Origin: a bacterium
GTDB lineage: Bacteria > Patescibacteriota > CPR2 > UBA1875 > JAJYID01
NCBI GenBank assembly: GCA_030647205.1
Contig: JAUSJO010000002.1
Location: 11,261-75,260 of the forward strand
Direction of reading: 5' to 3'
Length of the DNA: 64,000 nt
The notes beneath the pieces were generated by a model. The model had not been told where the DNA came from, did no database searches, and worked only from the letters and a program-made list of their open reading frames with translations. A program made the translations under genes and the position numbers. How positions within the stretch are numbered: position 1 is the stretch's first letter; the number at the start of each line of letters is the position of its first letter. Positions 4,912 through 49,681 of the stretch are shown in pieces.

Positions 4912-4915
4912 AAAA

Positions 4916-5638: not shown

Positions 5639-5640
5639 TT

Positions 5641-6990: not shown

Positions 6991-7765
6991 TTCTTTTTTT
7001 GATTTTTAAATGTTCAAGTAAACCAACTTCTTTATGCATTATCAACCACTGTTGGTATGCAGCTATTGCTGTAGATGCTGCCCAATAGAGAGGTAGGGCT
7101 GCGGGAAGGCTGACCGAAATAACAATTGTAATTAAGGGAAACAGGTAAACCATTTTTGCCATCATCTGTTGCTGCGAGTCTTGTGGCTTACTTGGTGTCA
7201 TCAACTTGGTCTGTATGAACTGAGTAGCACCGGCCAAAATTCCAAGGATTAGATTTGGCTTAGCCAAATCAACTATACCAAAGAGTGATGTGTTTAGTGA
7301 TCCTCCGGCACCGATAACGCTCTTTACTGTTGGGATTTTTTCAACGAACGAGTAGAGCTGGGTAAGGATACCCTTAGACGCGTCTGTAAGTTGAATAAAG
7401 TTAGGATCTTTGAATTTTATAAAAACATAATATAGACCAAAGAGAATTGGAAGCTGAAGCAAGGTCGGAAGACAGGAAGAAAACGGGTTTATCTCCTTCT
7501 CTTTATATAGCTCTGTCATGGCTTTTTGCAGAGCCTGGGGATTATTCTTGTTTTTGCTTTTGATCTTCTCTATTTCCGGCTGCAAAGCTTTCAGGGCTTT
7601 TTGGCTGTGAAGTGCCTTAGCAGAAAGAGGCCAGAGAATTCCTCGGACAACGACTGTAATAGCAATCACCGCCAAGCCAAAATCATGAGTAGGAATGATA
7701 CTATAAAGAACAATCAGCAGATTTAAAAGCGGTTGAATTATTATTGAGTTAAAAATATTACCCAT
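6983..7765 (-). CDS. yidC: membrane protein insertase YidC (short form)
   Basis: Multi-TM, with YidC/Oxa1 motifs. Conserved yidD-yidC-jag arrangement. Confidence 0.8.
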   Translation of the reverse strand: MGNIFNSIIIQPLLNLLIVLYSIIPTHDFGLAVIAITVVVRGILWPLSAKALHSQKALKALQPEIEKIKSKNKNNPQALQKAMTELYKEKEINPFSSCLPTLLQLPILFGLYYVFIKFKDPNFIQLTDASKGILTQLYSFVEKIPTVKSVIGAGGSLNTSLFGIVDLAKPNLILGILAGATQFIQTKLMTPSKPQDSQQQMMAKMVYLFPLITIVISVSLPAALPLYWAASTAIAAYQQWLIMHKEVGLLEHLKIKKRNG

Positions 7766-32285: not shown

Positions 32286-32864
32286 ATGGACTCAAAATAT
32301 GGATTTCAGCAATATTTAATTCGCAGGAAGGTTCTTACTTTTTTAGGAGCCAAGTTCCATATTTATGGACCGGACGGAAGCTTGGTTTTTTTCTCAAAAC
32401 AGAAGGCATTTAAGATAAGGGAAGATATAAGAGTTTATACTGATGAAAGTATGCAAACAGAAGCACTGAGCATCAAAGCGCGCCAAATTATGGATTTCTC
32501 GGCAGCGTATGATGTTATTGATACGGCTGATGGTACAAAGGTAGGAGCGGTAAAAAGAAAAGGGTTTAATGCCATGATCCAGGACAAATGGATTATTATG
32601 GATGCAGATGACAATGAGATTGGGTCGGTGAACGAGGATAATCTCACAATGGCCCTTTTGCGAAGGTTTGCTACAAACCTTATCCCCCAGAATTTTACGG
32701 GCGAAGTTGGTGGCGCACCGGTTTTTACTTTTAAACAAATGTTCAACCCCTTCATTCAGAAGATAGGTTTGGATTTTTCTCCTGATCAGAGGGGTCTTCT
32801 TGATAGAAGGTTGGGGATAGCAATAGCCATACTGCTTTGTGCGGTTGAGGGTAGGCAGAGCTAA
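32286..32864 (+). CDS. hypothetical protein, possibly LOR/tubby C-terminal-like (DUF567) fold
   Basis: Alternating beta-strand pattern. Weak resemblance to LURP-one-related proteins. Low confidence. Confidence 0.3.
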   Translation: MDSKYGFQQYLIRRKVLTFLGAKFHIYGPDGSLVFFSKQKAFKIREDIRVYTDESMQTEALSIKARQIMDFSAAYDVIDTADGTKVGAVKRKGFNAMIQDKWIIMDADDNEIGSVNEDNLTMALLRRFATNLIPQNFTGEVGGAPVFTFKQMFNPFIQKIGLDFSPDQRGLLDRRLGIAIAILLCAVEGRQS

Positions 32865-32910
32865 CACACTCTTTAATAAGTGGCTCCAAAATGGTAAAAT
32901 ACCTTTGTTT

Positions 32911-33000
32911 GGAGAGGTCGCATAGTGGTCTAGTGCGCCGCCTTGGAAAGGCGGTATATCTGAAAGGGTATCGAGGGTTCGAATCCCTCCCTCTCCGCCA
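32911..33000 (+). tRNA. tRNA-Ser (anticodon GGA)
   Basis: GGAGAGG acceptor, anticodon stem CCGCC/GGCGG with loop TTGGAAA, long variable arm, encoded CCA. Confidence 0.85.
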
Positions 33001-33129
33001 AGAAAAGGAGCTCGATTTTTTGAGGTTCTTTTTTTGTTCGTAGCGCCTATTTTTACTTCACAAAGAGCATTTTTTAATGTATAATAACCCTTACGTAACT
33101 TGACAATCCGGGACTTTAAGGAGGTGACG

Positions 33130-34239
33130 ATGGAACCATGTGTGCCAACACAAGCTGTTGTCGAACTGACAAAACAGTGCAATCTCTGCTGTCAGCATTG
33201 CGGTTCGGGCTGTACTTCCAAGGCAGATCCGAAAGAAATGAATGTTGAGGAGTGGAAGGATTGTATCGATCAGTTAGCTGCACTGGGAACCGAGAAAGTT
33301 ATTTTCTCCGGTGGTGAGCCCACGCTAAAAGATCAGTTTGACGAGCTAATAGTTCATGTAGGAAAACGGGGGCTTAAGTACGCCTTTATTACAAATGGCT
33401 ATGAACTTCCCGATACGATTGCCTCGACCATAAGTAAGCACAGACCATATGCTGTTGGTGTAAGCATCGACGGTATGGAAGGGGTTCATAATCAGATAAG
33501 ACGCAAAAAGGATAGTTGGTCTCGAGCCCTGGAAACTATCAGGGGAGTTAAAAACCTCGGGATCCAGGTCTGCGTTGTTACTACTGTCAGCAGGCACAAT
33601 TTGTCTGAGCTGGACTTGCTTGCGGATTTTCTTTCAAAAGAAGTAGATTCGTGGCAGATTCAGTTGGCAACTCCTTTCGGGAGGATGGCCAAACGAGAAG
33701 ACGCCTTACTTAGTGAAGATGAGTTTACTGCGCTTTGTCGTAGAATAATCATTTACAGACATGTCTACCCCGAACTTAATATACAAGCGGCTGACTGCTT
33801 TGGGATGGCGCCGGCCGGCACAGTCCGGTCTGGTTTCTGGGGTGGTTGTAGTGCAGGGGTCACATCGCTTGGAATTGATGCTTGTGGTTCGATACTCCCC
33901 TGTCTTTCTTTACAGTCAGGTGCAACCTGCGGGAATCTTCGTGAGAGGAGTCTGGAGGAGATATGGAAGAACTCTGAGGGCTTTGCACTTAACCGCAGAT
34001 TTCATGAGAAAGACGCGAACGGGGGAAAGTGTGAAGGATGCGAGGAGCTAGATCTATGTAGGGGCGGCTGTGCTAGCCAATCATATGCCTACTACGGCAG
34101 GTTCCATAGTTCGCCATTTTGTTATGAAAGGACGTTTCATCTCAAACATTCGGAAGGAGGTGTTCAAGATGCAGAATATTCTCAGTGTGATCCTCAAAGA
34201 CATGGAACAGCACATTGTTCCAGTAAAGCTGCCGGGTGA
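33130..34239 (+). CDS. radical SAM enzyme with C-terminal SPASM/twitch domain
   Basis: GGAGGTGA RBS then ATG at 33130. CNLCCQHC (CxxxCxxC). GGEPTL. C-terminal auxiliary-cluster Cys motifs (CGSILPC, CxxC...C...GGC). ~50% GC. Confidence 0.75.
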   Translation: MEPCVPTQAVVELTKQCNLCCQHCGSGCTSKADPKEMNVEEWKDCIDQLAALGTEKVIFSGGEPTLKDQFDELIVHVGKRGLKYAFITNGYELPDTIASTISKHRPYAVGVSIDGMEGVHNQIRRKKDSWSRALETIRGVKNLGIQVCVVTTVSRHNLSELDLLADFLSKEVDSWQIQLATPFGRMAKREDALLSEDEFTALCRRIIIYRHVYPELNIQAADCFGMAPAGTVRSGFWGGCSAGVTSLGIDACGSILPCLSLQSGATCGNLRERSLEEIWKNSEGFALNRRFHEKDANGGKCEGCEELDLCRGGCASQSYAYYGRFHSSPFCYERTFHLKHSEGGVQDAEYSQCDPQRHGTAHCSSKAAG

Positions 34240-34657
34240 CAAGAAGCTGGTTAAGCGGGCACTTGTTGAGGTTGGCGCCAAAGCAAGCATGATTGAGATC
34301 TTGGCTTCTACTTATGGAGAGACCTTTGGCGGTCTTCACCGGAAGCTGGCCGAGAAGCTCTATGGCGAAGCCGAGATCGATCTGGTTTTCGGGGTTTTCT
34401 ACGAGGAAGACAAGATGGTCTTTGCTTTTTGTCGGGATGTTGCTGACTACAACAAAAAAACCAAGAGAGTCGAATGTAGAGATCTCGACGAGATTCTGGT
34501 TGAAAAAGTCACTCCGATCGAGGGTATTCCTGTCAGGCCGCCGATTAAGTTTCCGGGAGCGGACATGCCATCCAAGCCGCCAGGCTCTATGCCTGACGTG
34601 GTGGTGCGTTACGCTCTCGTTGAAAAACCGGAGCCGGAGGAGGCGCAAGCGTCTTAG
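34169..34657 (+). CDS. hypothetical protein co-transcribed with the radical SAM/SPASM enzyme
   Basis: AAGGAGGTG RBS. 162 aa, Pro-rich C-terminus. Overlaps the rSAM 3' end in another frame. No recognisable domain. Confidence 0.45.
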   Translation: MQNILSVILKDMEQHIVPVKLPGDKKLVKRALVEVGAKASMIEILASTYGETFGGLHRKLAEKLYGEAEIDLVFGVFYEEDKMVFAFCRDVADYNKKTKRVECRDLDEILVEKVTPIEGIPVRPPIKFPGADMPSKPPGSMPDVVVRYALVEKPEPEEAQAS

Positions 34658-34672
34658 CGCCATTCAAACACT

Positions 34673-34702
34673 AGCGGGCTTACACAATAAGCCCGCTTTT
34701 TC
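34673..34702 (+). terminator. rho-independent terminator of the rSAM operon
   Basis: AGCGGGCTT-acacaat-AAGCCCGCT then TTTTT. Confidence 0.6.
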
Positions 34703-34715
34703 TTTGTTTAAACCA

Positions 34716-34753
34716 AAAAGAAAAAAGCCCCAGTTCGGTTGAACTGGGGCTTT
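34716..34753. terminator. bidirectional terminator serving the convergent minus-strand operon
   Basis: A-run, GCCCCAGTTC-ggtt-GAACTGGGGC, then TTT. Overlaps the stop of the PurA-like gene. Confidence 0.6.
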
Positions 34754-36176
34754 ATGTATCCAGAAGGTGCAGTTTATCGTCGGATTTATTTCCGACAGAA
34801 GCGATTGCTACAGGTATTCCGAGGCCCTTATCGGACTCAAGGAACTTAAGGAATGCCTTAGCATTTGGATGAAGAGTATTTTTTTGCCTTGCTTGCGGCC
34901 ATCCCTCGAACTCTTGAAAGTCCAGAGGCTTGCACTCAAGAAGCATTTTTGTACGCTCTTCACTTTGCTTTTGTGTGATTCCGGGGAGGTGTTTAATACC
35001 GGTTATTTCCACTCGGCCATTACTGACGCAACAACTGAAGTAATGGTTGAGCTTGTCTTTTTCCTCGCCGCAATATTCATAAGAGCGACAGACCTTGAGG
35101 TTGTTCTGCCCGTCGAAACGATCAAGGCAAGTGACCGAAAGGAAAACGGGCTCACCGGATGATTTGACCGAATAACGTGATGTAATGAGGTCAAAGTAAC
35201 CGTAGCGGAAGCTGTCTTGCCAACGGTTTTGTTGGTTGTGTTCTCCAGCTTCAAGGTGTGGTAAGTTCTCGGAAGTGACAAAGGGTCCCGCTCCATGTCT
35301 TGTAGCAAAGCAGCGGGTGACACCAATGTTTACGACCGAGTCTAGGCCTCCAAGCGACTCGATTATCTTGTTAGCGGTGCTCGGTAGTACTCTCGTTTTG
35401 GTTACGTATGGAGTAAAACCGATAATCGGGTCAAGGAGGACTCCTTGGGCTCCTTCTAAAACGATCGTCTTATCTTTTGCCAATCGGTCAAAGATAATCT
35501 CGTCTGACTGAAAGGCTCCGTTAAGCGCTCCTGCGAACTCAAGATATTCCCGAAACAACTTGACCGGTGAAGTGCCTCTCAAGAACGTTTGGAATATTGA
35601 GATGACCTCTTCTGATTGGCTGGTTTCAAGGATGACTTGCGCGACCGCGAGCTTTTGCCTGTAATGTTCTTGGATCTTGGTCCAAAGAGCAGATGAAGAG
35701 GAGAGATCGCGGATAGTTAGAGATGAATCGGGCTGTTCGGTTCTATCGAATGATGCTTGCCCTACTCCCATTCCGACACTTCCGTGCTTCAGAGATCCCC
35801 GAGCTGCCTCAAGCATTTGACCAATCATGGCATGCCAAGGCGTCACTATGTAGCAGTTGGGGGAGATGGTAATTCTTGAGAGCGCATCTGAAACGCCGAT
35901 CCTTTGTAGCTGTTCGGCCTCGATTAAGAGGTTTGAGGGCTTGACTAGCATTCCTTCTGTCAGATGTGTTTTGACTCCAGGGACAAGTGTTCCTGATCCA
36001 AACTGGCTAAAGCAATGGAAGTGGCCGTTTTCTACGACATGATGAGCTGCTTGCGGCCCGCCATTATAACGGATAACAGCAGTTGCATCATATTTTTTTA
36101 CCAGCGACTCTACAGTAGTTCCTTTGCCCTCATCTCCATAACTAAGACCAAAGATGTTGTATACTCTGGCGGTCAT
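34752..36176 (-). CDS. adenylosuccinate synthetase (PurA)-family GTP-dependent ligase, divergent
   Basis: AAGGAG RBS then ATG (MTARVYNIFGLSYGDEGKGTTVE). NGGPQAAHHV in place of NGGNNAGHT. C-terminal GW...PPNAKAFLKFLE...GIPVAIASVGNKSD matches the PurA C-terminus. ~50% GC. Confidence 0.7.
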   Translation of the reverse strand: MTARVYNIFGLSYGDEGKGTTVESLVKKYDATAVIRYNGGPQAAHHVVENGHFHCFSQFGSGTLVPGVKTHLTEGMLVKPSNLLIEAEQLQRIGVSDALSRITISPNCYIVTPWHAMIGQMLEAARGSLKHGSVGMGVGQASFDRTEQPDSSLTIRDLSSSSALWTKIQEHYRQKLAVAQVILETSQSEEVISIFQTFLRGTSPVKLFREYLEFAGALNGAFQSDEIIFDRLAKDKTIVLEGAQGVLLDPIIGFTPYVTKTRVLPSTANKIIESLGGLDSVVNIGVTRCFATRHGAGPFVTSENLPHLEAGEHNQQNRWQDSFRYGYFDLITSRYSVKSSGEPVFLSVTCLDRFDGQNNLKVCRSYEYCGEEKDKLNHYFSCCVSNGRVEITGIKHLPGITQKQSEERTKMLLECKPLDFQEFEGWPQARQKNTLHPNAKAFLKFLESDKGLGIPVAIASVGNKSDDKLHLLDT

Positions 36177-37077
36177 GGTGGCTCCTTGACTCGTAGTGCT
36201 CGATAAGGCTGATAGCTTCACCAAAAGCATAACGGTCCCTGCAGATCCAGTCGCTTAGCATGAATCTGCTGTAGCCCATTAGATGGAGAAGGTGAAAATC
36301 CGAAATGTCGCTAAGCGAGACTTCTTCGGAACTTTCGAGAGACGTGAGGATTCGGGAAGCTGCATAAGCAAACGGGTCGTACTGGATAATTGTTGCTTCG
36401 GCAGCGATGATATCCTCTTTTTGATTGCCCAAGTTGATATAGAGGTCGTCGCGAGCGGCCATAAGACGAACGTCATTGACGAACGGACCGTACTCTTTTA
36501 CAACAAACTCAATGCCCCGCTTGGACTCGATCTTGGCCACGATTTTCGCATCAGGATCAAGGGCCACAACTTCGCTGATGTCAGATGTTTTTTCAACGAA
36601 CGACAACATGTAGTTATGGACGCCTAACTTTTTAGCGGCCTCAATATACTGGTAGTCGCTCTCGGTCAGATATCCTTCAATCACGAGTGACGGATCGAGA
36701 ATATTGACTGCTTCACCGGCGCCAACAGGTCTTTTGGGCTCGTTCTGAAGTATCAGTTTGTTGCCGTCCACTATATCTACAATCTTGGACTTATGGTCCT
36801 TGAAGTAGAGAGTGGTTGGCAAGTTAACAGATATCTTGTGACTGAGCTCCACTGTCGTAAAGGTTGGGTCGGCCCATTTTGTGACTCGAAGCTGTCTTGA
36901 TTTTAAGTCAATCCAGAGCGGCTTTTCTCCGCAGAGGTCGACTAAGTCTTTCAAAATTTCTTCTTTATCTTTGCCTCCCGTAGGAGTGACCGTATTGAAC
37001 CGCAACGCTTCTATGGTCGGGTGAGACACGACCATCTTCCGGAAACTGATATAGGGTGAAAGGGTTGCGAGTAACAT
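36142..37077 (-). CDS. pyruvate-kinase-like / HpcH-CitE-like TIM-barrel enzyme
   Basis: GAAGGGAG RBS. IVAKIESKRGIEFV...MAARDDLYINLG...EDIIAAEATII aligns with the PK barrel (KIEnxeG...ARGDLGIEIP). Barrel only, 311 aa. Confidence 0.5.
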   Translation of the reverse strand: MLLATLSPYISFRKMVVSHPTIEALRFNTVTPTGGKDKEEILKDLVDLCGEKPLWIDLKSRQLRVTKWADPTFTTVELSHKISVNLPTTLYFKDHKSKIVDIVDGNKLILQNEPKRPVGAGEAVNILDPSLVIEGYLTESDYQYIEAAKKLGVHNYMLSFVEKTSDISEVVALDPDAKIVAKIESKRGIEFVVKEYGPFVNDVRLMAARDDLYINLGNQKEDIIAAEATIIQYDPFAYAASRILTSLESSEEVSLSDISDFHLLHLMGYSRFMLSDWICRDRYAFGEAISLIEHYESRSHHDRQSIQHLWS

Positions 37078-37139
37078 CGCGTGCTCCCTTCGTTTTGAGG
37101 CAGGAAGCGGGCTTATGCACCCGCTTCCTGCCGATTGGT

Positions 37140-38102
37140 TTACAGCCGTTTTGTTTTTGTTTTCCGATTAGCACCAGGCTCATCAGGCAGCTGGTCGGTA
37201 GTGTCTACCTTGACCAGCGCGGTTCCGACAGCGCTAAGCGTTTCTGAGACCTCAGATATCCGCTTTGCATCCTGTCCTCTGTTTTTCATGTCGACTAGAT
37301 AGCCGGCAAGATCCCGAGAACCGCTTGTCATGGCGATTGCTCCCAGCATGACATCTACGACCGCCTTCGGATCTTGCATGATCAGTACATGGTCAGATCC
37401 TAAGAGGTCTTCCCATTGGGCGACAATCCGCTTATTTGTAGAGGAGTTGGCGTCTCCGCTATAGTGTTTGTGAATTAGGAAGACGTTTCCCTTGAACTTC
37501 TTCTTGAGCGCCGTAAAGACTTTCTTGGTGCTCACATTCTGCTTGATGGATTTCCCGAAAAGAGCACTTACATGGTTGGTCTTGACTTCTTCGTATGCTC
37601 CCTCATCGGCGAGGAAAAAGAAGTAAGGGGCTGAGTCTTCAGGAATCTTACAGAAGTGGGCATAGTAATATGCCATTAGCTCATAGGTTTCTCTGGCGCC
37701 ACCGCCACCGCCACCCTCGAGCCATATTTTGGCAAGGTCTGCATCGAGTGCAGTGCCTTCGGCGAAATCGCAAACCTGAATCGGGCAATCGTCGCCGTTA
37801 GCATCACCATTAGCGGCAAACGATATAGACAGATCGGGCAGATAGTTCTGCTGGACAATCTGGCCGAAGAACATCGGCATCTTGTCATAGATTGTGCGAG
37901 CCCAGTTACCCATAGATCCCGTTACATCAAGGTCGATGACAACCGGGTTTTTGTGGGTGCACTCGATGTGTCGACCCTTGGGCATTAGCGCGCTATCAGC
38001 GTAGTCTGAACCGACTGCGCTAGCAGAATCATCACTGAAACTGAATCCTCCGCTGCTTTTACTGCTTCGGTAAACATCACGATCATAACTTCCTCCGCCC
38101 AT
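37140..38102 (-). CDS. cytoplasmic von Willebrand factor A (vWA) domain protein
   Basis: AAGGAG RBS. MIDAS-like DLDVTGSMGN. GGGGGG loop. No signal peptide. Confidence 0.7.
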   Translation of the reverse strand: MGGGSYDRDVYRSSKSSGGFSFSDDSASAVGSDYADSALMPKGRHIECTHKNPVVIDLDVTGSMGNWARTIYDKMPMFFGQIVQQNYLPDLSISFAANGDANGDDCPIQVCDFAEGTALDADLAKIWLEGGGGGGARETYELMAYYYAHFCKIPEDSAPYFFFLADEGAYEEVKTNHVSALFGKSIKQNVSTKKVFTALKKKFKGNVFLIHKHYSGDANSSTNKRIVAQWEDLLGSDHVLIMQDPKAVVDVMLGAIAMTSGSRDLAGYLVDMKNRGQDAKRISEVSETLSAVGTALVKVDTTDQLPDEPGANRKTKTKRL

Positions 38103-44429: not shown

Positions 44430-44521
44430 GGAAGGGTGCCGGAGTGGTTGAACGGGGCAGTCTCGAAAACTGTTGTCCTGCTTACGCGGGACCGAGAGTT
44501 CGAATCTCTCCCCTTCCGCCA
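44430..44521 (+). tRNA. tRNA-Ser (anticodon CGA)
   Basis: GGAAGGG acceptor, anticodon stem GCAGT/ACTGT with loop CTCGAAA, long variable arm, GAGAGTTCGAATCTCTC, G73, encoded CCA. Confidence 0.85.
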
Positions 44522-44577
44522 GATAGCTTTGAGAGGTTCGCCCTAAATCCTCAGGGCGCCCCGCGAATGCTGGGGCG

Positions 44578-44596
44578 AATCCCACCCTCTCCGCCA
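44578..44596 (+). other. orphan tRNA-like 3' end (degenerate T arm plus acceptor strand plus GCCA)
   Basis: ...TGGGGCGAATCCCACCCTCTCCGCCA parallels TGGGTTCGAATCCCACCCTCACCGCCA of tRNA-Ser(TGA), with a 1-nt deletion in the T loop. Confidence 0.4.
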
Positions 44597-44610
44597 AATG
44601 AGAAAATGTA

Positions 44611-45342
44611 ATGTTTGATACAAAACTAAAAACATCTGAATATATAAACTTAACGGTTACACACGATTGTACCCGCCGGTGCTTATTTTGTGTGGATCGT
44701 TATCGTGGAAGCGGGGAAATGGTTAGTCTTGACGCCGTCCATCGTGTAGCGGCATTTGCTTCGAGAAGAGGGATTAAGGACATACTTATTACTGGCGGGG
44801 AGCCAACTCTTCATCCCGATATAGTGGAGATTGTGAAAATAGTTAAAAAATATGGACTTCGCGTCATTATGACGACTAACTATGACCGGCCGAACGTATT
44901 TGAGAAACTTGATGGGATCGTTGATTGCTTCAATATTTCTTTCTATAATCAAGCCCTTTTGCCAAAACAAAAAGAAACAAGGTCCGATATTACTATCCAT
45001 GCATTGATTTATGATGAACAACTGGAGACACAAGAAAAACTGGATCGGTTTATTGATAGATATCATCACTACGGGCATTTGAAATTTTCAACTTTAACTC
45101 CCTGCAATGCATGGACGACCGAACACCAGCACGTCTCATACTTAGACGATCTTGAGTGTGAATGGATAGTTCTATTTAATGAGATGCTAGCCCAAGTCTA
45201 TCGTGGAGTAGTTATAAAAAGGTATGATAGGATTATTAGCAGAAACGCGTCCCAGTCTTATAAGGCTCACGTTGATGGGACTATTACTAAGTCGTGGGAC
45301 AGGGAGAGAACCTCCACTCTCTCCGCCAAGGCAAAAGTTTGA
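44611..45342 (+). CDS. small radical SAM enzyme (no SPASM domain)
   Basis: CTRRCLFC (CxxxCxxC) and GGEPTLHPD. 243 aa. Confidence 0.7.
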   Translation: MFDTKLKTSEYINLTVTHDCTRRCLFCVDRYRGSGEMVSLDAVHRVAAFASRRGIKDILITGGEPTLHPDIVEIVKIVKKYGLRVIMTTNYDRPNVFEKLDGIVDCFNISFYNQALLPKQKETRSDITIHALIYDEQLETQEKLDRFIDRYHHYGHLKFSTLTPCNAWTTEHQHVSYLDDLECEWIVLFNEMLAQVYRGVVIKRYDRIISRNASQSYKAHVDGTITKSWDRERTSTLSAKAKV

Positions 45343-45388
45343 AAAATTTTATGTTACTACCACTGTATTAAAACATTAACTAAAAAAC

Positions 45389-46264
45389 ATGCTAGAAATT
45401 TCACACGAGGAACCACAACACAACAATATCACAGATGGATCTGTTGAATCTTTCGGCGGGGAGTCCAAATTTGTAGATATTCAGCCTTCTTTAGAATCTC
45501 AGATATCTAACATTCCGGTTATTGTTGCCGGAGGTTGGTCTGAAACTCCCAAAAGCCTGCAGGATGTAGGTGAAGAAATAACTTCAAAAGGACGAAGGAC
45601 AATACTAGTTGAACATGCACGCTCCGGCGGCAAGGATAAAGACCAAACAGATTATCCGCCAGAAACACAACAAAGAGCCAATACACTGCTTGTCACCTTA
45701 GATAAACTAAATATAGATAAAGCGGATATTATAGCTCATTCAGAAGGTGCCTTAGATGCTGTGTTTGCTGCTATGCAATCGCCTGAAAGATTTAGGAGCT
45801 TGATTTTAGTGGCCCCTGCAGGGATGATAGGCGAAGATTCTATCCCGGCATTGAGCGCCAGGTTCTCAAAAAAGATCGTGAGAGGATGGACAAAAGATGC
45901 TCGTGAAAATCCTAAAGCAGCATATAGATTAAATACTGGTACGCCTCAGTATGTAGCCAAGAATCCGGTAAAAGCTATCAGAGAAATAAAGGATATTTCC
46001 AGTATAACTATTGAAGAGGCTTTAACAGATATTAAAGAGTCAGGTGTTAACGTCTCAATAATACAATCGCAATCTGATCAAGTTTTCCCTAGTGAAAGAA
46101 TCAATAAAAATGTAGTTTTAGGTGAGAATGTTGATAGACATGCCTCAGTGGTAAGTGAGGATGCGGGTCACGATGATTTAATAGTCCACCCCGAGAGATC
46201 TACTCGCGCAGCCCTCCAGATGATCGATCAATTTGAAGAGGATAGACAAGTATCCTCCGAGTAG
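45389..46264 (+). CDS. alpha/beta-hydrolase-fold esterase/lipase
   Basis: Nucleophile elbow IIAHSEGA. Predicted Asp/His further downstream. Confidence 0.55.
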   Translation: MLEISHEEPQHNNITDGSVESFGGESKFVDIQPSLESQISNIPVIVAGGWSETPKSLQDVGEEITSKGRRTILVEHARSGGKDKDQTDYPPETQQRANTLLVTLDKLNIDKADIIAHSEGALDAVFAAMQSPERFRSLILVAPAGMIGEDSIPALSARFSKKIVRGWTKDARENPKAAYRLNTGTPQYVAKNPVKAIREIKDISSITIEEALTDIKESGVNVSIIQSQSDQVFPSERINKNVVLGENVDRHASVVSEDAGHDDLIVHPERSTRAALQMIDQFEEDRQVSSE

Positions 46265-46393
46265 TCGTTTGCTAAATCCCAGGCATAAATGTTTTCTCAA
46301 TCGTATTATTTCAATATTATACGTAATTATTCAAAAGAAAAAGAGCCCGACTACTTAAGTCGGGCCCTTTGATCCCATTTAAGGGAAAAGGTA

Positions 46394-46654
46394 CTACCCC
46401 TTGCGACCGGAGGCCTTAACAAACTCGACCTGGTCTCCCTTTTTGAGGGTCTTGTTCCAGTCCGTGACCTGGTTTCCGTTCACGAAGGCGTTCGGCTTTG
46501 ACCGAAGTCTGCCACCGGCGCCCATGATCTTTGCCGCTTCCTTGAGAGTCTTGTTCGGTGCGATTTCTCTTGTGTCGCTGCCGTACCTTACTGTGGTCAT
46601 CAAGGACTCGCCCTTGTCGTCTGACCGGTAACTGTTCTCAGTTTCTGCTGACAT
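46394..46654 (-). CDS. ubiquitin-like beta-grasp protein (ThiS/MoaD/Ubl-like) with C-terminal ...GRKG
   Basis: AAGGGGGTGG RBS then ATG (MSAETEN...). C-terminal half ...FVNGNQVTDWNKTLKKGDQVEFVKASGRKG fits the ThiS/Ubl pattern. GC-rich island. Confidence 0.5.
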   Translation of the reverse strand: MSAETENSYRSDDKGESLMTTVRYGSDTREIAPNKTLKEAAKIMGAGGRLRSKPNAFVNGNQVTDWNKTLKKGDQVEFVKASGRKG

Positions 46655-47321
46655 GTTTCCACCCCCTTTCCTGAGGTAGAATTTTTCTTTGCATTTCCGG
46701 CTCGATACTGACATAAATCTCCATAGTGGGGTTACCGGAGACGATGTCGGCGTAAGCTTCTATCATGGCGAGACCAACCATTCGGTTTGTCTCCGCGATT
46801 TGGGGATGCGAGCGTGATAACGCAAGGCATCCTTGTTCGAAAGGCCCCTTGTCTGTGGGGCTTGCGATCTCGGGATGGAAGTGGGCCAACGGCGGAGTTA
46901 TCGAAACTCCATCTTTCCGCCAGAAAACCGATACATTTCCATCTTTGAGCTCATTACCTCCGGATACGAGGAGGATGTCGCTCAGGTTCCTTTCGCAATG
47001 GGTGTCCACGATATTTCTTGTCTTGTGGTTGTCCACTGCCAGAAAGACCGTGTCGCCAGGGCCAACCAGAACTCCGACATTCTCAGGAGTTATGTAGCTG
47101 GGTATCCCTGTTGCCTCTACCCCTTGGGCAGAAAGCGCGCTTGCGGTAACGATCGCCTTGTTCGCACCAACCTGAGCAAACGGCTGCCTCTCTTTGTTCT
47201 TCTTTTCGTACTTGTCTCCGTCTATGAGGATCAGCTTTGCTTCAGGATATTTCTCGATCAGATACGGCAGCATTTGGTTAGTAATGCCGCCAACACCGAC
47301 TATCTTGATGACTTCTTTCAT
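46638..47321 (-). CDS. E1-like ThiF/MoeB-family adenylyltransferase (short form)
   Basis: Rossmann IVGVGGITNQMLPYL. LAVDNHKTR (ThiF/E1 ATP-binding arginine region). Confidence 0.7.
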   Translation of the reverse strand: MKEVIKIVGVGGITNQMLPYLIEKYPEAKLILIDGDKYEKKNKERQPFAQVGANKAIVTASALSAQGVEATGIPSYITPENVGVLVGPGDTVFLAVDNHKTRNIVDTHCERNLSDILLVSGGNELKDGNVSVFWRKDGVSITPPLAHFHPEIASPTDKGPFEQGCLALSRSHPQIAETNRMVGLAMIEAYADIVSGNPTMEIYVSIEPEMQRKILPQERGWKHVSRN

Positions 47322-47983
47322 GCATTCTCACCGCCTTTTAGGTATCTCCAGATCCGGGACAGATAAAAGCGCATGAGGACGCGGAAGCCTCGGGACTTAT
47401 GAACTTGTGGAATTTTGACAGAGGTAAGCTCCTCCAGTTCCACTTCTTCCAGTGCCGGGGGCGGTTCGAAGATGTCTTCAGGATAGAAAAATACCCTTTT
47501 ATCCCCGACGATCACTGAACAGCTGATCGAAGGAAAAACGCTTGTGAGCAAATTCCCAATGGTGATATGAATGCCTGGCATACCCAGCTCGTCCTGATCA
47601 TCAAACTGTGAGTGTCCGGCAGGTTCGTCGACATGCGAGTGTAAGTCGCCTATCTGGTTGTACCCGGGCGGGCTTGGAGGCAGGTCGCTATGAATGACGA
47701 AAACTCCAACAGCAGTCTGATCTGGGATGACGAAGCGATATTCCTGCTCATCGTGAGAGTAATACATCGCGATGTAGAGCTCAGCATTCTGGTTCTTGGC
47801 GACATACCTCATTTGCTCAACGATTTCGTTGAACCTTGAGTAGGGTATCCGCGGTACTTTCAGCGAAACTCCTTCTTTGATGTCAGGCATCTTCCATAGC
47901 GGTATAGACTCAGCCGTTGCGCTGTAGAAGTCATTGCTCTCGACCGCAAAAATGCCTTTTTTACCGGTTTCGTTGCTCAGCAT
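47318..47983 (-). CDS. JAB/MPN (JAMM) metalloprotease
   Basis: JAMM motif HSHVDEPAGHSQFD (HxH-x7-S-xx-D) with an upstream Glu. Overlaps its neighbours by 4 nt. Confidence 0.65.
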   Translation of the reverse strand: MLSNETGKKGIFAVESNDFYSATAESIPLWKMPDIKEGVSLKVPRIPYSRFNEIVEQMRYVAKNQNAELYIAMYYSHDEQEYRFVIPDQTAVGVFVIHSDLPPSPPGYNQIGDLHSHVDEPAGHSQFDDQDELGMPGIHITIGNLLTSVFPSISCSVIVGDKRVFFYPEDIFEPPPALEEVELEELTSVKIPQVHKSRGFRVLMRFYLSRIWRYLKGGENA

Positions 47984-47984
47984 A

Positions 47985-48599
47985 TTACACCTCTTTCAAG
48001 CTCTCGTAGAAGTCAGTAGGTAGATACAAGTCACCACTTTTGAGTCTATGGCTTCCGGCACTGGCGAAGTAACGCATTTCTAGTTCAAGGACTGACTGTG
48101 GGGTCATTCTTGAAAGAAGAGCCCATCTGTAAGGATTCCTTACCCGCCAATCTGAGGCCATGAGAAGATCCAGTTTGTTATGCATGATGCCGAAACCTTC
48201 ACTCCAGAAATGGTTCACGATGCCTACAGCCCCTTGAAGGGGTGAAGTCGGCGTATAGAGGGAAAGAGTGTCGGCGCAGAGCTCTCCTTTGGTAGTGAAA
48301 TGAGGAAGGAAGGGTACGTACAAGTTATCGTTGGGACTTTCAAGTGGCTTTCTTGCGAAAAACACACTAATCCCCGAATTCACGTATCCACCCTGATCCT
48401 TTTCCCCATACATTCTTACAAAGAAGTAGGTGTAAGGCATGATAAGCTTAAGCGTAAAGGGAAGATTCCAGACTTTCAGTGATCTGAAAGCCGGAGGATA
48501 TTCCAGTACTTCCCAATATACGTGACCTCCTTGGGAGATCTCTGCTACCCTTGTATACCCCTCCCCTCCGACGAGAAGAGGATATTTTACGTCTGTCAT
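47985..48599 (-). CDS. E2-like (UBC-fold) candidate
   Basis: PHFTTKGELCADTLSL resembles HPN...G.ICLDIL around the E2 catalytic Cys. GAGGAG RBS before the internal ATG, which is taken as the start. Confidence 0.4.
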   Translation of the reverse strand: MTDVKYPLLVGGEGYTRVAEISQGGHVYWEVLEYPPAFRSLKVWNLPFTLKLIMPYTYFFVRMYGEKDQGGYVNSGISVFFARKPLESPNDNLYVPFLPHFTTKGELCADTLSLYTPTSPLQGAVGIVNHFWSEGFGIMHNKLDLLMASDWRVRNPYRWALLSRMTPQSVLELEMRYFASAGSHRLKSGDLYLPTDFYESLKEV

Positions 48600-48600
48600 C

Positions 48601-48999
48601 TTACTCCTCATTTCTGTCGATTTGGACGGGGCAGTTTTTGCTGTTTTTTGCTGTTTCTTGGATCAAAACGTTGATTATCTTGTTAGCTCTTTCCACTACA
48701 GGGCGAAGACTTTGATACAGTTTTTCTTTCTGTTCTGCTTGGTATGCTTCCTTGGCTTCAACCTCAGTTACTGCGGTTGAGTAAAAGGATGCAAACAAAA
48801 GAACAAAAACAGAAAGAGCCACGATAGTTCCCCAACCTCTAAGGAAGCGGGGATATCGGTTCAGCTTTACTCTGACGGGGGTTAATACTAACATTCTGAA
48901 GAACCCGTAGAGCAGTCCGGTGACTACAAATGCTATGGAGGCCTCTACTATGACAATCCAGATTCGGGCATCACCTGCCGCAAATGAAGGTGTGAACAT
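48601..48999 (-). CDS. two-TM membrane protein heading the E2-JAB-E1-Ubl operon
   Basis: IWIVIVEASIAFVVTGLLYGF and TIVALSVFVLLFASFY helices plus a coiled-coil-like tail. Stop overlaps the next gene. Confidence 0.4.
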   Translation of the reverse strand: MFTPSFAAGDARIWIVIVEASIAFVVTGLLYGFFRMLVLTPVRVKLNRYPRFLRGWGTIVALSVFVLLFASFYSTAVTEVEAKEAYQAEQKEKLYQSLRPVVERANKIINVLIQETAKNSKNCPVQIDRNEE

Positions 49000-49050
49000 T
49001 TATATCACTATTCCTTTCGTATATTTATGTGTAAAGGTGCGCAATAGAAA

Positions 49051-49079
49051 ATTATACTGTACTTATGCTATATTGTCAA
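49051..49079 (-). promoter_or_regulatory. consensus sigma70 promoter (TTGACA-17-TATAAT) driving the Ubl-system operon
   Basis: Minus strand reads TTGACAatatagcataagtacagTATAAT, about 50 nt upstream of the 48999 start. Confidence 0.6.
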
Positions 49080-49123
49080 CCCTTTTTGTAGTGGCGCAAA
49101 GCTATTGAACCATTACTATCTCC

Positions 49124-49152
49124 TTGACTTATCTTTTTTCTTGTGTTATAGT
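49124..49152 (+). promoter_or_regulatory. divergent promoter TTGACT-17-TATAGT for the 49224 gene
   Basis: Good -35/-10 spacing. AGGAGG RBS then GTG downstream. Confidence 0.5.
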
Positions 49153-49223
49153 ATTATCTCTGAAAAATCATTAGCTTCAATTCTATAAGCGATGAGTGAA
49201 CCTTAGAGAGGTAGGAGGCACGA

Positions 49224-49607
49224 GTGAACGATTCACAGAAAATTGCTGAATTAGTGAAGCGGTGTGGAAAGTCGGTTCAGATCCTTGAGAAAAAGCGGAT
49301 GTTAGGCTTTATCCCTGTTACTCACTCTCGCGGATGGCTCTGGATCGATGATGCTAACGATCATTGGTCTGTAACCCTTGCCAATGGCAAGACGTCCCAT
49401 CAGGCCCTTGGTAGTAAGGCTTTCGCCGCAGACTTTCGAAAGGCCAATGGTGAGCGCAAAATAGGGCCGTCTGATCTGACCGGCGTATGGAAGTCAGCAC
49501 TTTCTATGTGGCCGATCAGAGACGAAGAGGAAGCCGTTCGGGTCTTTGATCTTATTGTATCAAGGATTGATCTGGCTTACAGCTATCACTGTACGGCACA
49601 GGCATGA
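49224..49607 (+). CDS. hypothetical soluble protein (GC-rich, divergent from the Ubl operon)
   Basis: GTG start with AGGAGG RBS. 127 aa. No recognisable domain. Confidence 0.4.
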   Translation: MNDSQKIAELVKRCGKSVQILEKKRMLGFIPVTHSRGWLWIDDANDHWSVTLANGKTSHQALGSKAFAADFRKANGERKIGPSDLTGVWKSALSMWPIRDEEEAVRVFDLIVSRIDLAYSYHCTAQA

Positions 49608-49625
49608 TGTATGTACTTCTAACAG

Positions 49626-49660
49626 CGGGGTATCGGACTCTAGTCCGATACCCCGTTTTT
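49626..49660 (+). terminator. rho-independent terminator
   Basis: CGGGGTATCGGAC-tcta-GTCCGATACCCCG then TTTTT. Confidence 0.65.
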
Positions 49661-49681
49661 CTTTATAGTAGAAAAATCCGT

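What the first reader, a model, noticed from the sequence alone, without database searches (positions are those of the whole stretch)
46394..49660. Bil/Bub-like bacterial ubiquitin-like conjugation operon (TM protein, E2-like, JAB, E1, Ubl) on a GC-rich island with a perfect consensus promoter
Seen in sequence:
- Four overlapping minus-strand genes: a UBC-like protein with an HPN-like PHF...GELCADTL segment; a JAMM protease with HSH-x7-S-xx-D; a ThiF/E1 Rossmann with the DNHKTR region; a ThiS/Ubl-like protein ending GRKG.
- A two-TM protein upstream of them.
- All transcribed from TTGACA-17-TATAAT, and GC-shifted relative to the neighbours.

Established knowledge: E1-E2-JAB-Ubl operons (Bil/Bub and related) are anti-phage or conflict systems.

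The membrane protein and the non-GG Ubl C-terminus are departures from described Bil operons. Presence in a reduced-genome host is itself notable.
Basis: partly seen in the sequence, partly recalled or inferred. Interest (0 to 1): 0.75.

Follow-up and report, generated by a model that had tools for sequence, protein, structure and literature searches.

The report
Rare membrane-linked ubiquitin-like tagging operon
A tiny-genome (Patescibacteria) bacterium carries a horizontally acquired five-gene operon encoding a divergent ubiquitin-like protein-tagging kit plus a small membrane protein. It belongs to a class predicted in 2006 ('6d'/PRTRC) for which I found no experimental study, not to the Bil or Bub phage-defence systems.

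Summary
Five translationally coupled minus-strand genes (2TM protein, UBC-like E2, JAMM/JAB protease, minimal ThiF-type E1, small Ubl ending GRKG) lie between a unique perfect sigma-70 promoter and an intrinsic terminator. The block is GC-shifted and under purifying selection.

The Bil/Bub label is only partly right.
- No Bil, Bub or CBASS model or solved structure matches.
- The E1 is a single 227-aa adenylation domain.
- Both E1 and E2 keep an invariant cysteine.
- No DUF6527 (BubE) protein is present.

The closest relatives are the uncharacterised '6d'/PRTRC cassettes of plasmids.
- The JAB, including its N-terminal domain, matches only PRTRC_A.
- The E1 aligns full-length to PRTRC-ThiF with the loop cysteine in register.
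- The E2-JAB-E1 gene order is shared.
- The 'non-GG' tail G-x-K-G is the same C-terminal motif as in all five PRTRC_C proteins read.

It is not a PRTRC member: ParB, protein E and protein F are absent, and scores fall far below the curated cut-offs. The conserved 2TM partner is new.

The family is extremely rare, with about six loci in 5.8 billion proteins. The biological role is unproven. Verdict: a new variant of a known, untested kind.

The parts
49051..49079 (-). Perfect sigma-70-type promoter, TTGACA-17-TATAAT, 52 nt upstream of the 2TM start codon
   Evidence: the only exact match in the window, against 0.03 expected; the promoter and 5'UTR are 100% identical in L001, whereas the upstream DNA cannot be aligned.
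48601..48999 (-). Small two-transmembrane protein (132 aa). It has a conserved basic loop, TPvRvK-N-YPRFLRg, between the TM segments, and a variable helical C-terminal tail.
   Evidence: Hydropathy. The loop motif, including the Lys, is conserved in L001, L002 and L003. No family match reaches significance.
47985..48599 (-). UBC-like E2 (204 aa; an alternative start lies at 48611). Candidate catalytic Cys112 sits 8 residues after His104, in LPHF-x5-LC.
47318..47983 (-). JAB/JAMM metalloprotease (221 aa) with an N-terminal JAB-N domain. The catalytic motif is intact: E68, H115xH117x7S125xxD128.
   Evidence: PRTRC_A is the only NCBIfam hit for all four orthologues. hhalign to PRTRC_A: probability 90%, E 1.6e-6. 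hhalign to a Brevibacillus plasmid JAB: probability 96%, E 1.8e-9.
46638..47321 (-). Minimal ThiF-family E1 (227 aa) with a single adenylation domain and no CxxC motifs. Cys109 and Cys165 are conserved; Cys165 is the candidate thioester site.
   Evidence: hhalign to PRTRC-ThiF over 201 columns: probability 82%, E 1e-5, with Cys165 aligned to the PRTRC Cys. The same holds for the Brevibacillus ThiF.
46394..46654 (-). Small ubiquitin-like protein (86 aa). It has a variable N-terminal extension, a ThiS/MoaD-like core and a C-terminus K-A-S-G-R-K-G.
   Evidence: ThiS hit in 4 of 4 orthologues, best E 2.3e-4, below the gathering cut-off. The terminal G-x-K-G matches all five PRTRC_C proteins read. 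The C-terminal 15 residues align at E 0.0086.
46340..46370 (-). Intrinsic terminator closing the operon
   Evidence: 13-pair stem followed by a T-run, 24 nt after the Ubl stop codon.
49224..49607 (+). Divergent 127-aa ORF with its own promoter-like site and a strong terminator (49624-49657). It is GC-rich like the operon but absent from L001. Whether it belongs to the system is doubtful.

Best explanation
This is a compact, horizontally acquired ubiquitin-like protein-conjugation cassette of the '6d'/PRTRC lineage. It has the PRTRC core (Ubl, E2, JAB, E1) but lacks the plasmid partners (ParB, proteins E and F), and it is coupled instead to a small two-transmembrane protein.

Inferred mechanism:
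1. The minimal E1, presumably a homodimer like other ThiF-family enzymes, adenylates the C-terminal Gly86 of the Ubl. In this lineage the recognised tail is G-x-K-G rather than G-G.
2. The Ubl is taken up as a thioester on the crossover-loop Cys165 of the E1.
3. It passes to Cys112 of the UBC-like E2.
4. The E2 attaches it to lysines of target proteins without a dedicated E3.
5. The JAB protease reverses the modification. In relatives whose Ubl carries extra residues after G-x-K-G, it would also trim them.

The 2TM protein is inferred to place this chemistry at the inner face of the membrane. Its strongly basic, conserved inter-helix loop contains an invariant Lys and is the most likely docking site or primary substrate.

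Shown: gene content, intact catalytic motifs, operon architecture, purifying selection, foreign composition, and the homology relationships.

Inferred: every chemical step, the membrane topology, and the biological role. The role is most likely inter-genomic conflict or defence, as proposed for the other sporadic E1-E2-JAB operons.
For: Completeness and catalytic integrity:
- Motifs are invariant across orthologues at 45-59% identity.
- All five genes are under purifying selection against L001, dN/dS 0.10-0.38.
- One consensus promoter, overlapping or abutting genes and one terminator define a single unit.
- The promoter block is 100% conserved in L001.

Conserved order:
- The order (2TM)-E2-JAB-E1-Ubl is seen in L001, L002, L004 and L005, with a partial view in L003.

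Link to the 6d/PRTRC lineage:
- JAB hits only PRTRC_A, and hhalign gives 90% probability, covering JAB-N.
- E1 aligns full-length with PRTRC-ThiF, with Cys165 in register.
- The E2 profile finds relatives that match Prok-E2_D and PRTRC_B. hhalign to PRTRC E2s places the Cys in register.
- Canonical PRTRC has the same B-A-ThiF (E2-JAB-E1) order.
- All five PRTRC_C proteins read carry G-x-K-G. Two have tails after it.
- The description of type 6d in Iyer et al. 2006 (PMC1779556) fits: a small Ubl with a conserved C-terminal Gly, a JAB with JAB-N, a stand-alone E1, and an E2 lacking the classical His.

Accessory and foreign status:
- GC and GC3 are shifted here, and the operon is more GC-rich than its flank in every locus where flanking DNA was compared.
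- The operon is absent from its position next to the TPR gene in close relative L009.

Membrane partner:
- Two TM segments, with a loop of 5 K/R and no D/E.
- The loop motif is conserved at the 48%-identity level.
Against: - No biochemical or genetic data were found for any 6d/PRTRC system, so the whole cascade is argued by analogy.
- The Ubl beta-grasp assignment rests on sub-threshold ThiS hits. No structure was predicted for it.
- The Ubl core looks more ThiS/MoaD-like than PRTRC_C-like. Only the last 15 residues align with PRTRC_C.
- The minimal E1 has no UFD-like domain to recruit an E2.
- By the positive-inside rule, the C-terminal tail of the 2TM protein would be outside the cell, so only the loop could meet the enzymes. 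That topology is untested.
- No defence genes or known immune regulators flank the operon.
Confidence: 0.6

Rival explanations
1. It is a member of the Bil (BilABCD) or Bub (6E) families. [quoted passage not shown]
Against: - No PADLOC hit to any Bil or CBASS model, apart from E1 against the CBASS E1-E2 model at E 0.015.
- PDB sequence searches with profiles of the E1, JAB and E2 return no Bil, Bub or Cap chains.
- BilD is an IAD-AAD-CYS E1 (PMC11601596), whereas this E1 is a single 227-aa domain.
- Bub systems lack catalytic cysteines and always encode BubE/DUF6527. Here both cysteines are invariant and no such protein is present.
- The specific similarities point to PRTRC instead.
Confidence: 0.07
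2. It is a sulfur-carrier system of the ThiS/ThiF, MoaD/MoeB or TtuB/TtuC type. The small protein would be thiocarboxylated for cofactor or tRNA-thiolation chemistry.
For: The best named NCBIfam hits for the E1 are ThiF and MoeB (1.7e-9 to 4e-6). The Ubl gives weak ThiS and MoaD hits and has a ThiS-like '..NG..V.....L..GD.VE' core.
Against: - All those hits fall 100-400 bits below the equivalog cut-offs.
- The Ubl has no GG terminus.
- The E1 has no rhodanese domain and no CxxC motifs.
- No ThiG, ThiH, MoaE or other biosynthetic partner is nearby.
- A JAB and a Cys-bearing UBC-like protein are translationally coupled to the pair. According to Iyer et al. 2006 this never occurs in thiamine or MoCo operons.
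- The operon is an accessory, GC-shifted insert, absent at this site from a close relative.
Confidence: 0.04
3. It is an addiction or selfish-maintenance module inherited from plasmid or ICE PRTRC cassettes. It would persist by alternately modifying and de-modifying a host or membrane target, as in toxin-antitoxin logic, rather than defending the host.
For: - The nearest relatives sit on plasmids, many of them conjugative.
- Iyer et al. 2006 proposed exactly this alternative.
- The promoter is a strong consensus with no visible regulator.
- A small 2TM protein could act as a toxin-like element. A PADLOC '2TM effector' hit at E 0.035 is not significant.
- Uneven dS along the operon suggests recombination between variants.
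Against: - The chemistry is the same as in the main explanation, so this differs only in biological role.
- No mobility, partition or integrase genes are present at any of the loci.
- The operon sits at the same chromosomal site in two genomes that differ by about 12% in nucleotide sequence.
Confidence: 0.2
4. It is a decaying, non-functional remnant of a transferred cassette.
For: The family is extremely rare. The composition is foreign. In the public record only the ThiF gene carries a functional name.
Against: - dN/dS is 0.10-0.38 for all five genes.
- All catalytic residues are invariant down to 45-59% identity.
- There are no frameshifts or internal stops. Overlapping start and stop codons are kept, and the promoter is perfectly conserved.
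Confidence: 0.03

Closest known systems
Iyer-Burroughs-Aravind operon type '6d' = PRTRC cassette (TIGR03734-03741; E2 family Pfam PF14460 Prok-E2_D), e.g. Cupriavidus necator pHG1
   Same: - The core is a small Ubl, a UBC-like E2 with a conserved Cys and no classical His, a JAB carrying a JAB-N domain, and a stand-alone short E1.
- The gene order E2-JAB-E1 is shared.
- The Ubl C-terminus is G-x-K-G in both.
- The E1 loop cysteine aligns.
- Distribution is sporadic and linked to mobile elements.

   Different: - There is no ParB-family protein and no PRTRC protein E or F (the large alpha-helical protein). A 2TM protein is present instead.
- The Ubl gene lies downstream of the E1 rather than upstream.
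- The Ubl core is ThiS-like and aligns with PRTRC_C only at the tail.
- Scores are far below the TIGRFAM cut-offs: 28 against 102 bits for protein A, 23 against 145 bits for ThiF.
- His replaces the usual Asn at the 'LPN' position of the E2.
- The location is chromosomal, in Patescibacteria.
Unnamed E2-like / JAB / ThiF clusters on Bacillales megaplasmids (e.g. Brevibacillus laterosporus pAZOBL1, NZ_CP032411.1, 41.4-44.1 kb)
   Same: - These hold the closest JAB found in annotated records: hhalign probability 96%, E 1.8e-9, covering JAB-N and JAB.
- The E2-like protein aligns with the Cys in register, probability 86%.
- The short ThiF has an aligned loop Cys.
- The order E2-JAB-E1 is the same.
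   Different: - There is no separate Ubl gene. The JAB protein has a ~170-aa N-terminal extension that may hold a fused Ubl ('TCIRYGGETIPL...ARKKG'), but this is not significant (E 0.1).
- No 2TM gene is present.
- The genes are annotated as hypothetical, and I found no study of them.
Bil (BilABCD, Type I/II) anti-phage systems
   Same: Separate Ubl, E2, JAB and E1 genes. A thioester cascade through cysteines is expected. No E3 is present.
   Different: BilD is a large IAD-AAD-CYS E1. There is no sequence or profile similarity. Bil systems have no membrane partner.
Bub (6E/DUF6527) operons
   Different: Bub uses Ser/Tyr oxyesters, encodes the BubE serine protease, and has Ubl-E2, JAB-E1 or E2-E1 fusions. 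None of these features is present here.
Type II CBASS Cap2/Cap3
   Same: An E1 plus E2 plus JAB module. CBASS often uses 2TM effectors.
   Different: Cap2 is an E2-E1 fusion that conjugates a CD-NTase, not a Ubl. No CD-NTase is present here. The only similarity is E1 against the PADLOC E1-E2 model at E 0.015.
ThiS/ThiF and MoaD/MoeB sulfur-carrier pairs
   Same: ThiF-fold adenylation domain with all nucleotide-binding motifs. A small beta-grasp-like partner with a ThiS-like core.
   Different: No GG terminus, no CxxC motifs or rhodanese domain, and no biosynthetic partners. A JAB and an E2 are present.

Membership tests
Operon type 6d (Iyer et al. 2006) | Small stand-alone beta-grasp Ubl with a conserved C-terminal glycine | tested here: met
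   All four orthologues end in Gly, within K-x-x-G-x-K-G. ThiS is hit in 4 of 4, below the cut-off. The fold itself was not modelled.
Operon type 6d (Iyer et al. 2006) | JAB peptidase preceded by a JAB-N alpha+beta domain | tested here: met
   The hhalign and NCBIfam alignments to PRTRC_A start at residues 6-35, upstream of the JAMM core. An R-I-P motif is shared with C. necator PRTRC_A. The 'strictly conserved Trp' could not be identified.
Operon type 6d (Iyer et al. 2006) | E2-like protein with a conserved Cys but lacking the classical E2 His, with a conserved His downstream of the Cys | tested here: inconclusive
   Cys112 is invariant. The classical His position is Leu102, in the register L-P-[N/H]-x7-C. 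A downstream His144 is invariant only in the close family and is not in register with the PRTRC_B His.
Operon type 6d (Iyer et al. 2006) | Rapidly diverging alpha-helical protein with conserved charged residues in the operon | tested here: not met
   No such gene is present. The fifth gene is a 2TM protein with a helical tail and no match to PRTRC E or F.
PRTRC system (TIGR03734-03741) | Adjacent ParB-family protein | tested here: not met
   The neighbours are a radical SAM protein, an alpha/beta hydrolase, a 127-aa ORF, a TPR protein and ValRS. The canonical cassette has ParB.
PRTRC system (TIGR03734-03741) | Proteins A, B, C and ThiF scoring above the curated cut-offs | tested here: not met
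   Protein A scores 28.5 bits against a cut-off of 101.8. ThiF scores 23.4 against 144.75. Proteins B and C give no hit.
PRTRC system (TIGR03734-03741) | Ubl (protein C) C-terminal G-x-K-G | tested here: met
   The five PRTRC_C proteins read end GAKG(+5 residues), GRKG, GDKG, GTKG and GRKG(+tail). Ours end GRKG, GRKG, GGKG and GEKG. This feature is my own observation from five sequences, not a published definition.
Pfam PF14460 Prok-E2_D | Match to the family HMM above the gathering score | tested here: not met
   The window protein has no Pfam hit at E<=1. The link is transitive: the A1 profile hits P0020 (E 1.1e-5), which scores 29.2 bits against a 25-bit cut-off, and P0009 (E 6.5e-8), which scores 22 bits. 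13 of 36 relatives match.
UBC/E2 fold | Beta-meander, then an active-site loop with Cys, then C-terminal helices, superposable on E2 structures | tested here: met
Bil (BilABCD) | [quoted passage not shown] | tested here: not met
   227 aa with one ThiF domain. The definition comes from PMC11601596.
Bil (BilABCD) | Sequence similarity of the E2, JAB and Ubl to BilB, BilC and BilA | tested here: not met
   No PADLOC hits. No PDB sequence hits. I did not confirm that this PADLOC release or this PDB copy actually contains Bil entries, so these two negatives are weaker than the architecture test.
Bub (6E/DUF6527) | BubE (DUF6527/PF20137) serine protease in the operon | tested here: not met
   Pfam scans of all six ORFs show no such domain.
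Bub (6E/DUF6527) | E1 and E2 lack catalytic Cys (Tyr/Ser oxyester chemistry), with Ubl-E2, JAB-E1 or E2-E1 fusions | tested here: not met
   Cys165 (E1) and Cys112 (E2) are invariant. All the genes are separate.
Type II CBASS (Cap2/Cap3) | E2-E1 fusion acting on an adjacent CD-NTase | tested here: not met
   There is no fusion and no nucleotidyltransferase in or beside the operon.
ThiS/ThiF, MoaD/MoeB sulfur transfer | Carrier ending in GG, an equivalog-level E1, and adjacent biosynthetic partners | tested here: not met
   The carrier ends G-x-K-G. The E1 scores 37 bits against a 275-bit cut-off for ThiF and 26 against 377 for MoeB. No partner genes are present.
Functional Ubl conjugation (any family) | Formation of Ubl~Cys thioesters and isopeptide-linked conjugates | not testable with these tools
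   This needs biochemistry.

The most novel reading that the evidence does not exclude
A previously unrecognised class of bacterial ubiquitin-like system: a minimal, membrane-tethered Ubl cascade. In this reading the dedicated 2TM protein is the substrate or switch. Reversible attachment of the G-x-K-G Ubl to the invariant lysine of its cytoplasmic loop would gate a membrane activity, such as an abortive-infection pore, a surface-exposed tail, or a symbiosis-related function. The setting is ultra-small episymbiotic Patescibacteria. It would also give the first tractable model for the untested 6d/PRTRC lineage.
Probability: 0.2. Interest if true: 0.8.

Novelty: new variant of a known kind. Interest (0 to 1): 0.55.

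Why it matters
Three bacterial ubiquitin-like conjugation families (CBASS Cap2/3, Bil, Bub) have been dissected since 2022, and each showed unexpected chemistry or an immune role. The 6d/PRTRC lineage was predicted in 2006 and is present on about a hundred plasmids, but I found no experimental work on it.

This operon is a stripped-down, five-gene chromosomal version with several useful properties:
- All catalytic residues are intact.
- The Ubl tail is a non-GG motif (G-x-K-G).
- The E1 is very small, and there is no E3.
- A conserved membrane partner is present.

That makes it a compact candidate for reconstitution. It also shows that even highly reduced Patescibacteria genomes acquire and maintain such machinery. 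Only the ThiF gene carries a functional name in the public record, so the system would be missed by current annotation and by defence-system finders.

Tried and rejected
- AF2 on the E2-like protein with only 4 sequences failed (pLDDT 38.6). It succeeded only after 42 distant relatives were added.
- A word-indexed search with the 42-sequence E2 alignment returned only 6 proteins.
- Scans for more loci found nothing: GTDB species representatives, IMG/VR and JGI contigs, using both E2 and JAB patterns. The phage collection also gave no match, and PHROGs gave only a weak hit for the E1.
- I looked for att-type direct repeats that would bound the operon. tRNA-Ser 3'-end copies flank the radical SAM gene, but none lies at the operon's far end. 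The copy at 46901 inside the E1 gene looks like chance.
- Full-length homology of the Ubl to PRTRC_C could not be shown. Only the last 15 residues align.
- A fused Ubl in the Brevibacillus JAB protein is suggestive but not significant.
- PDB profile searches with the Ubl returned only spurious hits, such as CEA.
- Rfam found no RNA element apart from the tRNA.
- Literature searches for PRTRC, PF14460 or Patescibacteria Ubl systems found no functional study.
- The 127-aa divergent ORF was considered as a regulator. It has no HTH or other significant domain and is absent from L001.

Full report
1. WHAT IS THERE

The minus strand between 48999 and 46394 carries five tightly packed ORFs:
- a 132-aa protein with two hydrophobic segments (about residues 12-40 and 55-78);
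- a 204-aa protein (208 aa from an upstream ATG);
- a 221-aa protein;
- a 227-aa protein;
- an 86-aa protein.

Stop and start codons abut or overlap at every junction: an ATGA overlap between genes 3 and 4, and a 17-nt overlap between genes 4 and 5.

A perfect TTGACA-17-TATAAT lies 52 nt upstream of the first start codon. It is the only exact match in the 64-kb window, against 0.03 expected from shuffles. A 13-pair hairpin followed by a T-run comes 24 nt after the last stop codon.

The operon is 49% GC against 43% for the window, which puts it in the top 2% of equal-sized windows. GC3 climbs from 0.44 to 0.71 along the operon, while the flanking genes have GC3 of 0.32-0.39.

Its coordinates also take in a divergent 127-aa ORF (49224-49607) with its own terminator, which it did not mention.

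2. THE FOUR ENZYME-SYSTEM GENES

E1:
- Pfam ThiF at 1.7e-14.
- All adenylation motifs are present: GVGG, DGD, ERQ, NK and VDNHKTR.
- It has no CxxC motifs and no rhodanese domain.
- Two cysteines, C109 and C165, are invariant.

JAB:
- Pfam Prok-JAB at 6e-5.
- E68 and H115-x-H117-x7-S125-x2-D128 are invariant.

Ubl:
- It gives sub-threshold ThiS hits in all four orthologues, best 2.3e-4.
- It has a ThiS-like '..NG..V......L..GD.VE' core.
- It ends K-A-S-G-R-K-G.

E2-like protein:
- The 204-aa protein matches no Pfam, NCBIfam, PADLOC or PDB sequence.
- Its motif LYVPFLPHFTTKGELCADTL resembles the UBC active-site stretch.
- A profile of its four close homologues, run against 1.84 billion representative proteins, found 60 distant relatives at E 6.5e-8 to 1e-3.
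- Of the 36 sequences scanned (the window protein, its three close homologues and 32 distant relatives), 13 match Pfam Prok-E2_D and 4 match TIGR03737 PRTRC_B.
- Across 46 sequences the only invariant residues are P59 and C112.
- The consensus is LY-P-LPN-x7-C-G. This places His104 of the window protein at the Asn position of the eukaryotic HPN motif, with the same 8-residue spacing to the Cys, and Leu102 at the classical His position.
- With the 46-sequence alignment, AlphaFold gives pLDDT 78.8 and pTM 0.80.
- Foldseek against the PDB was uninformative.

I accept the UBC-like assignment with moderate confidence.

3. CONSERVATION AND RARITY

- The E2-like and JAB proteins each have only four relatives among 5.8 billion clustered proteins.
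- The contigs carrying them show the same order: L001 (2TM-E2-JAB-E1-Ubl, beside the same TPR and ValRS genes), L002 (a longer 2TM protein, then E2 and JAB), L003, L004 and L005 (E2-JAB-E1-Ubl).
- The 2TM gene is present in all four loci where upstream DNA is visible.
- Its inter-helix loop TP-R-K-N-YPRFLR, including one lysine, is conserved even at 48% identity. The C-terminal part varies: 55 aa here and about 190 aa in L002.
- Against L001, all five genes have dN/dS of 0.10-0.38.
- The promoter and 5'UTR are 100% identical in L001, whereas the DNA upstream of them cannot be aligned.
- No further loci were found in GTDB species representatives, IMG/VR, JGI contigs or phage records.

4. HOST AND GENOMIC SETTING

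- The proteins are deposited as 'MAG: bacterium', locus tags Q7S53_00520-00545, on a 428-kb contig. Only the E1 has a functional name.
- The ValRS is 93% identical to that of MAG WY5.bin98 and 65% identical to that of Patescibacteria bacterium UBA7522. The remaining hits, at 51-56% identity, are mainly Patescibacteria and Omnitrophota MAGs.
- The flanking genes are housekeeping or ordinary: adenylosuccinate synthetase, ValRS, TsaD, MurE-like, FemAB. No recognisable defence genes are present.
- In the close relative L009, the TPR gene is followed after about 30 bp by a tRNA-Ser 3'-end fragment. That fragment is identical to window 44577-44597.
- Relative to L009, therefore, about 5.1 kb is extra in the window (44599-49681). 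This segment holds the radical SAM gene, the alpha/beta hydrolase, the operon and the 127-aa ORF.
- In all four loci where flanking DNA could be compared, the operon is more GC-rich than its flank, for example 0.61 against 0.44 in L005.

The operon is therefore an accessory, horizontally acquired unit in a variable region next to tRNA-Ser. No att repeat marks its own ends.

5. WHICH KNOWN SYSTEM IS CLOSEST

Bil, Bub and CBASS do not fit:
- PADLOC gives nothing for the E2, JAB or Ubl, and only E 0.015 for the E1 against the CBASS E1-E2 model.
- PDB sequence and profile searches return MoeB, UBA5, TcdA and Uba4, but no BilD, BubCD or Cap2 chains. The JAB and E2 profiles return nothing relevant.
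- By the published definitions (PMC11601596), BilD is an IAD-AAD-CYS E1.
- Bub operons carry BubE/DUF6527, use fusions, and lack catalytic cysteines. None of this applies here.

The 6d/PRTRC lineage does fit:
- All four JAB orthologues hit exactly one NCBIfam model, PRTRC_A, at 1e-6 to 5e-5. The alignment includes the region N-terminal to the JAMM core.
- hhalign of the JAB against a Candidatus Manganitrophus PRTRC_A gives 90% probability, E 1.6e-6.
- The E1 aligns over 201 columns with PRTRC-ThiF, at 82% probability and E 1e-5, and C165 falls on the PRTRC cysteine.
- The E2 alignment matches PRTRC E2 proteins with the cysteine in register, at E 6.6e-5 and 1e-3.
- The canonical cassette on C. 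necator pHG1 reads ParB-E-C-F-B-A-ThiF. It therefore has the same E2-JAB-E1 order.
- The five PRTRC_C proteins I read end GAKG(+AHARI), GRKG, GDKG, GTKG and GRKG(+tail). This is the same G-x-K-G as the four Ubls of this family.
- This corresponds to operon type 6d of Iyer, Burroughs and Aravind 2006. That type has a small Ubl with a conserved C-terminal Gly, a JAB with JAB-N, a stand-alone E1, an E2 without the classical His, and an alpha-helical protein.

An even closer JAB (96% probability, E 1.8e-9) lies in unannotated E2-like/JAB/ThiF clusters on Bacillales megaplasmids such as Brevibacillus laterosporus pAZOBL1.

6. WHY IT IS NOT SIMPLY A PRTRC MEMBER

- ParB and proteins E and F are absent.
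- Scores are three- to six-fold below the curated cut-offs.
- The Ubl gene lies after the E1 rather than before it.
- The Ubl aligns with PRTRC_C only over the last 15 residues, at E 0.0086.
- The fifth gene is a 2TM protein unknown in PRTRC.

I therefore classify it as a new architectural variant of the 6d/PRTRC kind. It works like that kind, as far as anyone can infer, but it is not a member of the TIGRFAM-defined cassette.

7. MECHANISM

Shown: a complete and intact set of catalytic motifs, co-transcription architecture, purifying selection, and the homology relationships.

Inferred, by analogy with E1-E2 chemistry and with the predictions in PMC1779556:
1. The E1 adenylates Gly86 of the Ubl.
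2. A thioester forms on C165 of the E1.
3. The Ubl is transferred to C112 of the E2.
4. The E2 conjugates it to lysines without an E3.
5. The JAB reverses the modification. It would also trim the tail in relatives that have one.

The 2TM protein has a loop with five K/R and no acidic residues. By the positive-inside rule the loop would be cytoplasmic and both termini outside the cell. The loop is the conserved part and holds an invariant lysine. I therefore propose it as the docking site or substrate that localises the cascade to the membrane. This step is speculative.

The biological role, whether defence, addiction or regulation, is open. The analogy with Bil, CBASS and Bub and the accessory status of the operon favour a conflict role. 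There are, however, no neighbouring defence genes or known immune regulators.

8. RIVALS

- Sulfur-carrier chemistry is unlikely. There is no GG terminus, no partner genes and no rhodanese or CxxC motifs, and a JAB and an E2 are present.
- A dead remnant is excluded by the selection analysis.
- An addiction-type module inherited from plasmid cassettes remains a serious alternative for the biological role.
- Membership in Bil or Bub is contradicted by the tested defining features.

9. VERDICT

It is a new variant of a bioinformatically known kind for which I found no experimental study. The family is extremely rare, invisible to current annotation, and compact enough to be a good experimental entry point. 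Interest is 0.55.

Noticed in passing
window 44575-44598 and 45317-45329; L009 11059-11094: An orphan tRNA-Ser 3'-end fragment (GAATCCCACCCTCTCCGCCAA) lies 55 nt downstream of the intact tRNA-Ser(cga) at 44430-44521. Its 13-nt core recurs inside the 3' end of the radical SAM ORF, so the two copies bracket that gene. The same fragment sits about 30 bp from the TPR gene in relative L009. This looks like repeated integration at a tRNA-Ser att site.
   Followed up: partly
window 49224-49607 (+), terminator 49624-49657: A GC-rich 127-aa ORF, divergent from the operon, has its own promoter-like site (49124-49152) and a 15-pair terminator. It matches no family and is absent from the otherwise syntenic L001. 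It may be a separate small insertion.
   Followed up: partly
window 46394-48999 versus L001 9601-12206: Synonymous divergence is very uneven along the operon: E2 dS 1.08 and JAB 0.59, against E1 0.15, 2TM 0.23 and Ubl 0.28. This suggests recombination between operon variants, or mosaic ancestry.
   Followed up: no
L006 4535-11323; also L007 and L008 (JGI 3300009514/15/37): A tandem run of about 15 small ORFs (144-171 aa), at least three of which match Prok-E2_D, lies next to an IS605 OrfB/TnpB gene. An array of stand-alone E2_D-like paralogues is unusual.
   Followed up: no
E2 model m9c4da585cb29 versus BFVD: The E2-like fold matches large uncharacterised proteins of uncultured Caudovirales (A0A6J5MFC0, A0A6J5P0Y8, A0A7R7G2H5; E about 2e-7 to 5e-7, TM up to 0.65). 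Many sequence relatives are 700-1200 aa multidomain proteins. The Prok-E2_D-like domain therefore seems common in phage proteins.
   Followed up: no
L089 (Brevibacillus laterosporus pAZOBL1, NZ_CP032411.1) 4585-7280: An unannotated cluster of an E2-like protein (252 aa), a JAB (356 aa) and a ThiF. The ~170-aa N-terminal extension of the JAB protein contains 'TCIRYGGETIPL...VLQARKKG'. This may be a Ubl fused in front of its own protease, ending in a K-K-G junction. Similar clusters occur on other Bacillales megaplasmids.
   Followed up: partly
L091 6995-7219 (C. necator pHG1) and L090 4699-5016 (Ca. Manganitrophus plasmid): Two PRTRC_C proteins continue past the conserved G-x-K-G: AHARI in one, and a 37-residue basic tail in the other that overlaps the next gene. 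They could be pro-forms needing JAB trimming, or the stop codons could be mis-called.
   Followed up: no
window 32800-37300: This is the second GC-rich stretch of the window (0.48-0.50). It contains a radical SAM/SPASM gene, adenylosuccinate synthetase and a pyruvate-kinase-like gene beside tRNA-Ser(gga). The operon is therefore not the only compositional outlier.
   Followed up: no
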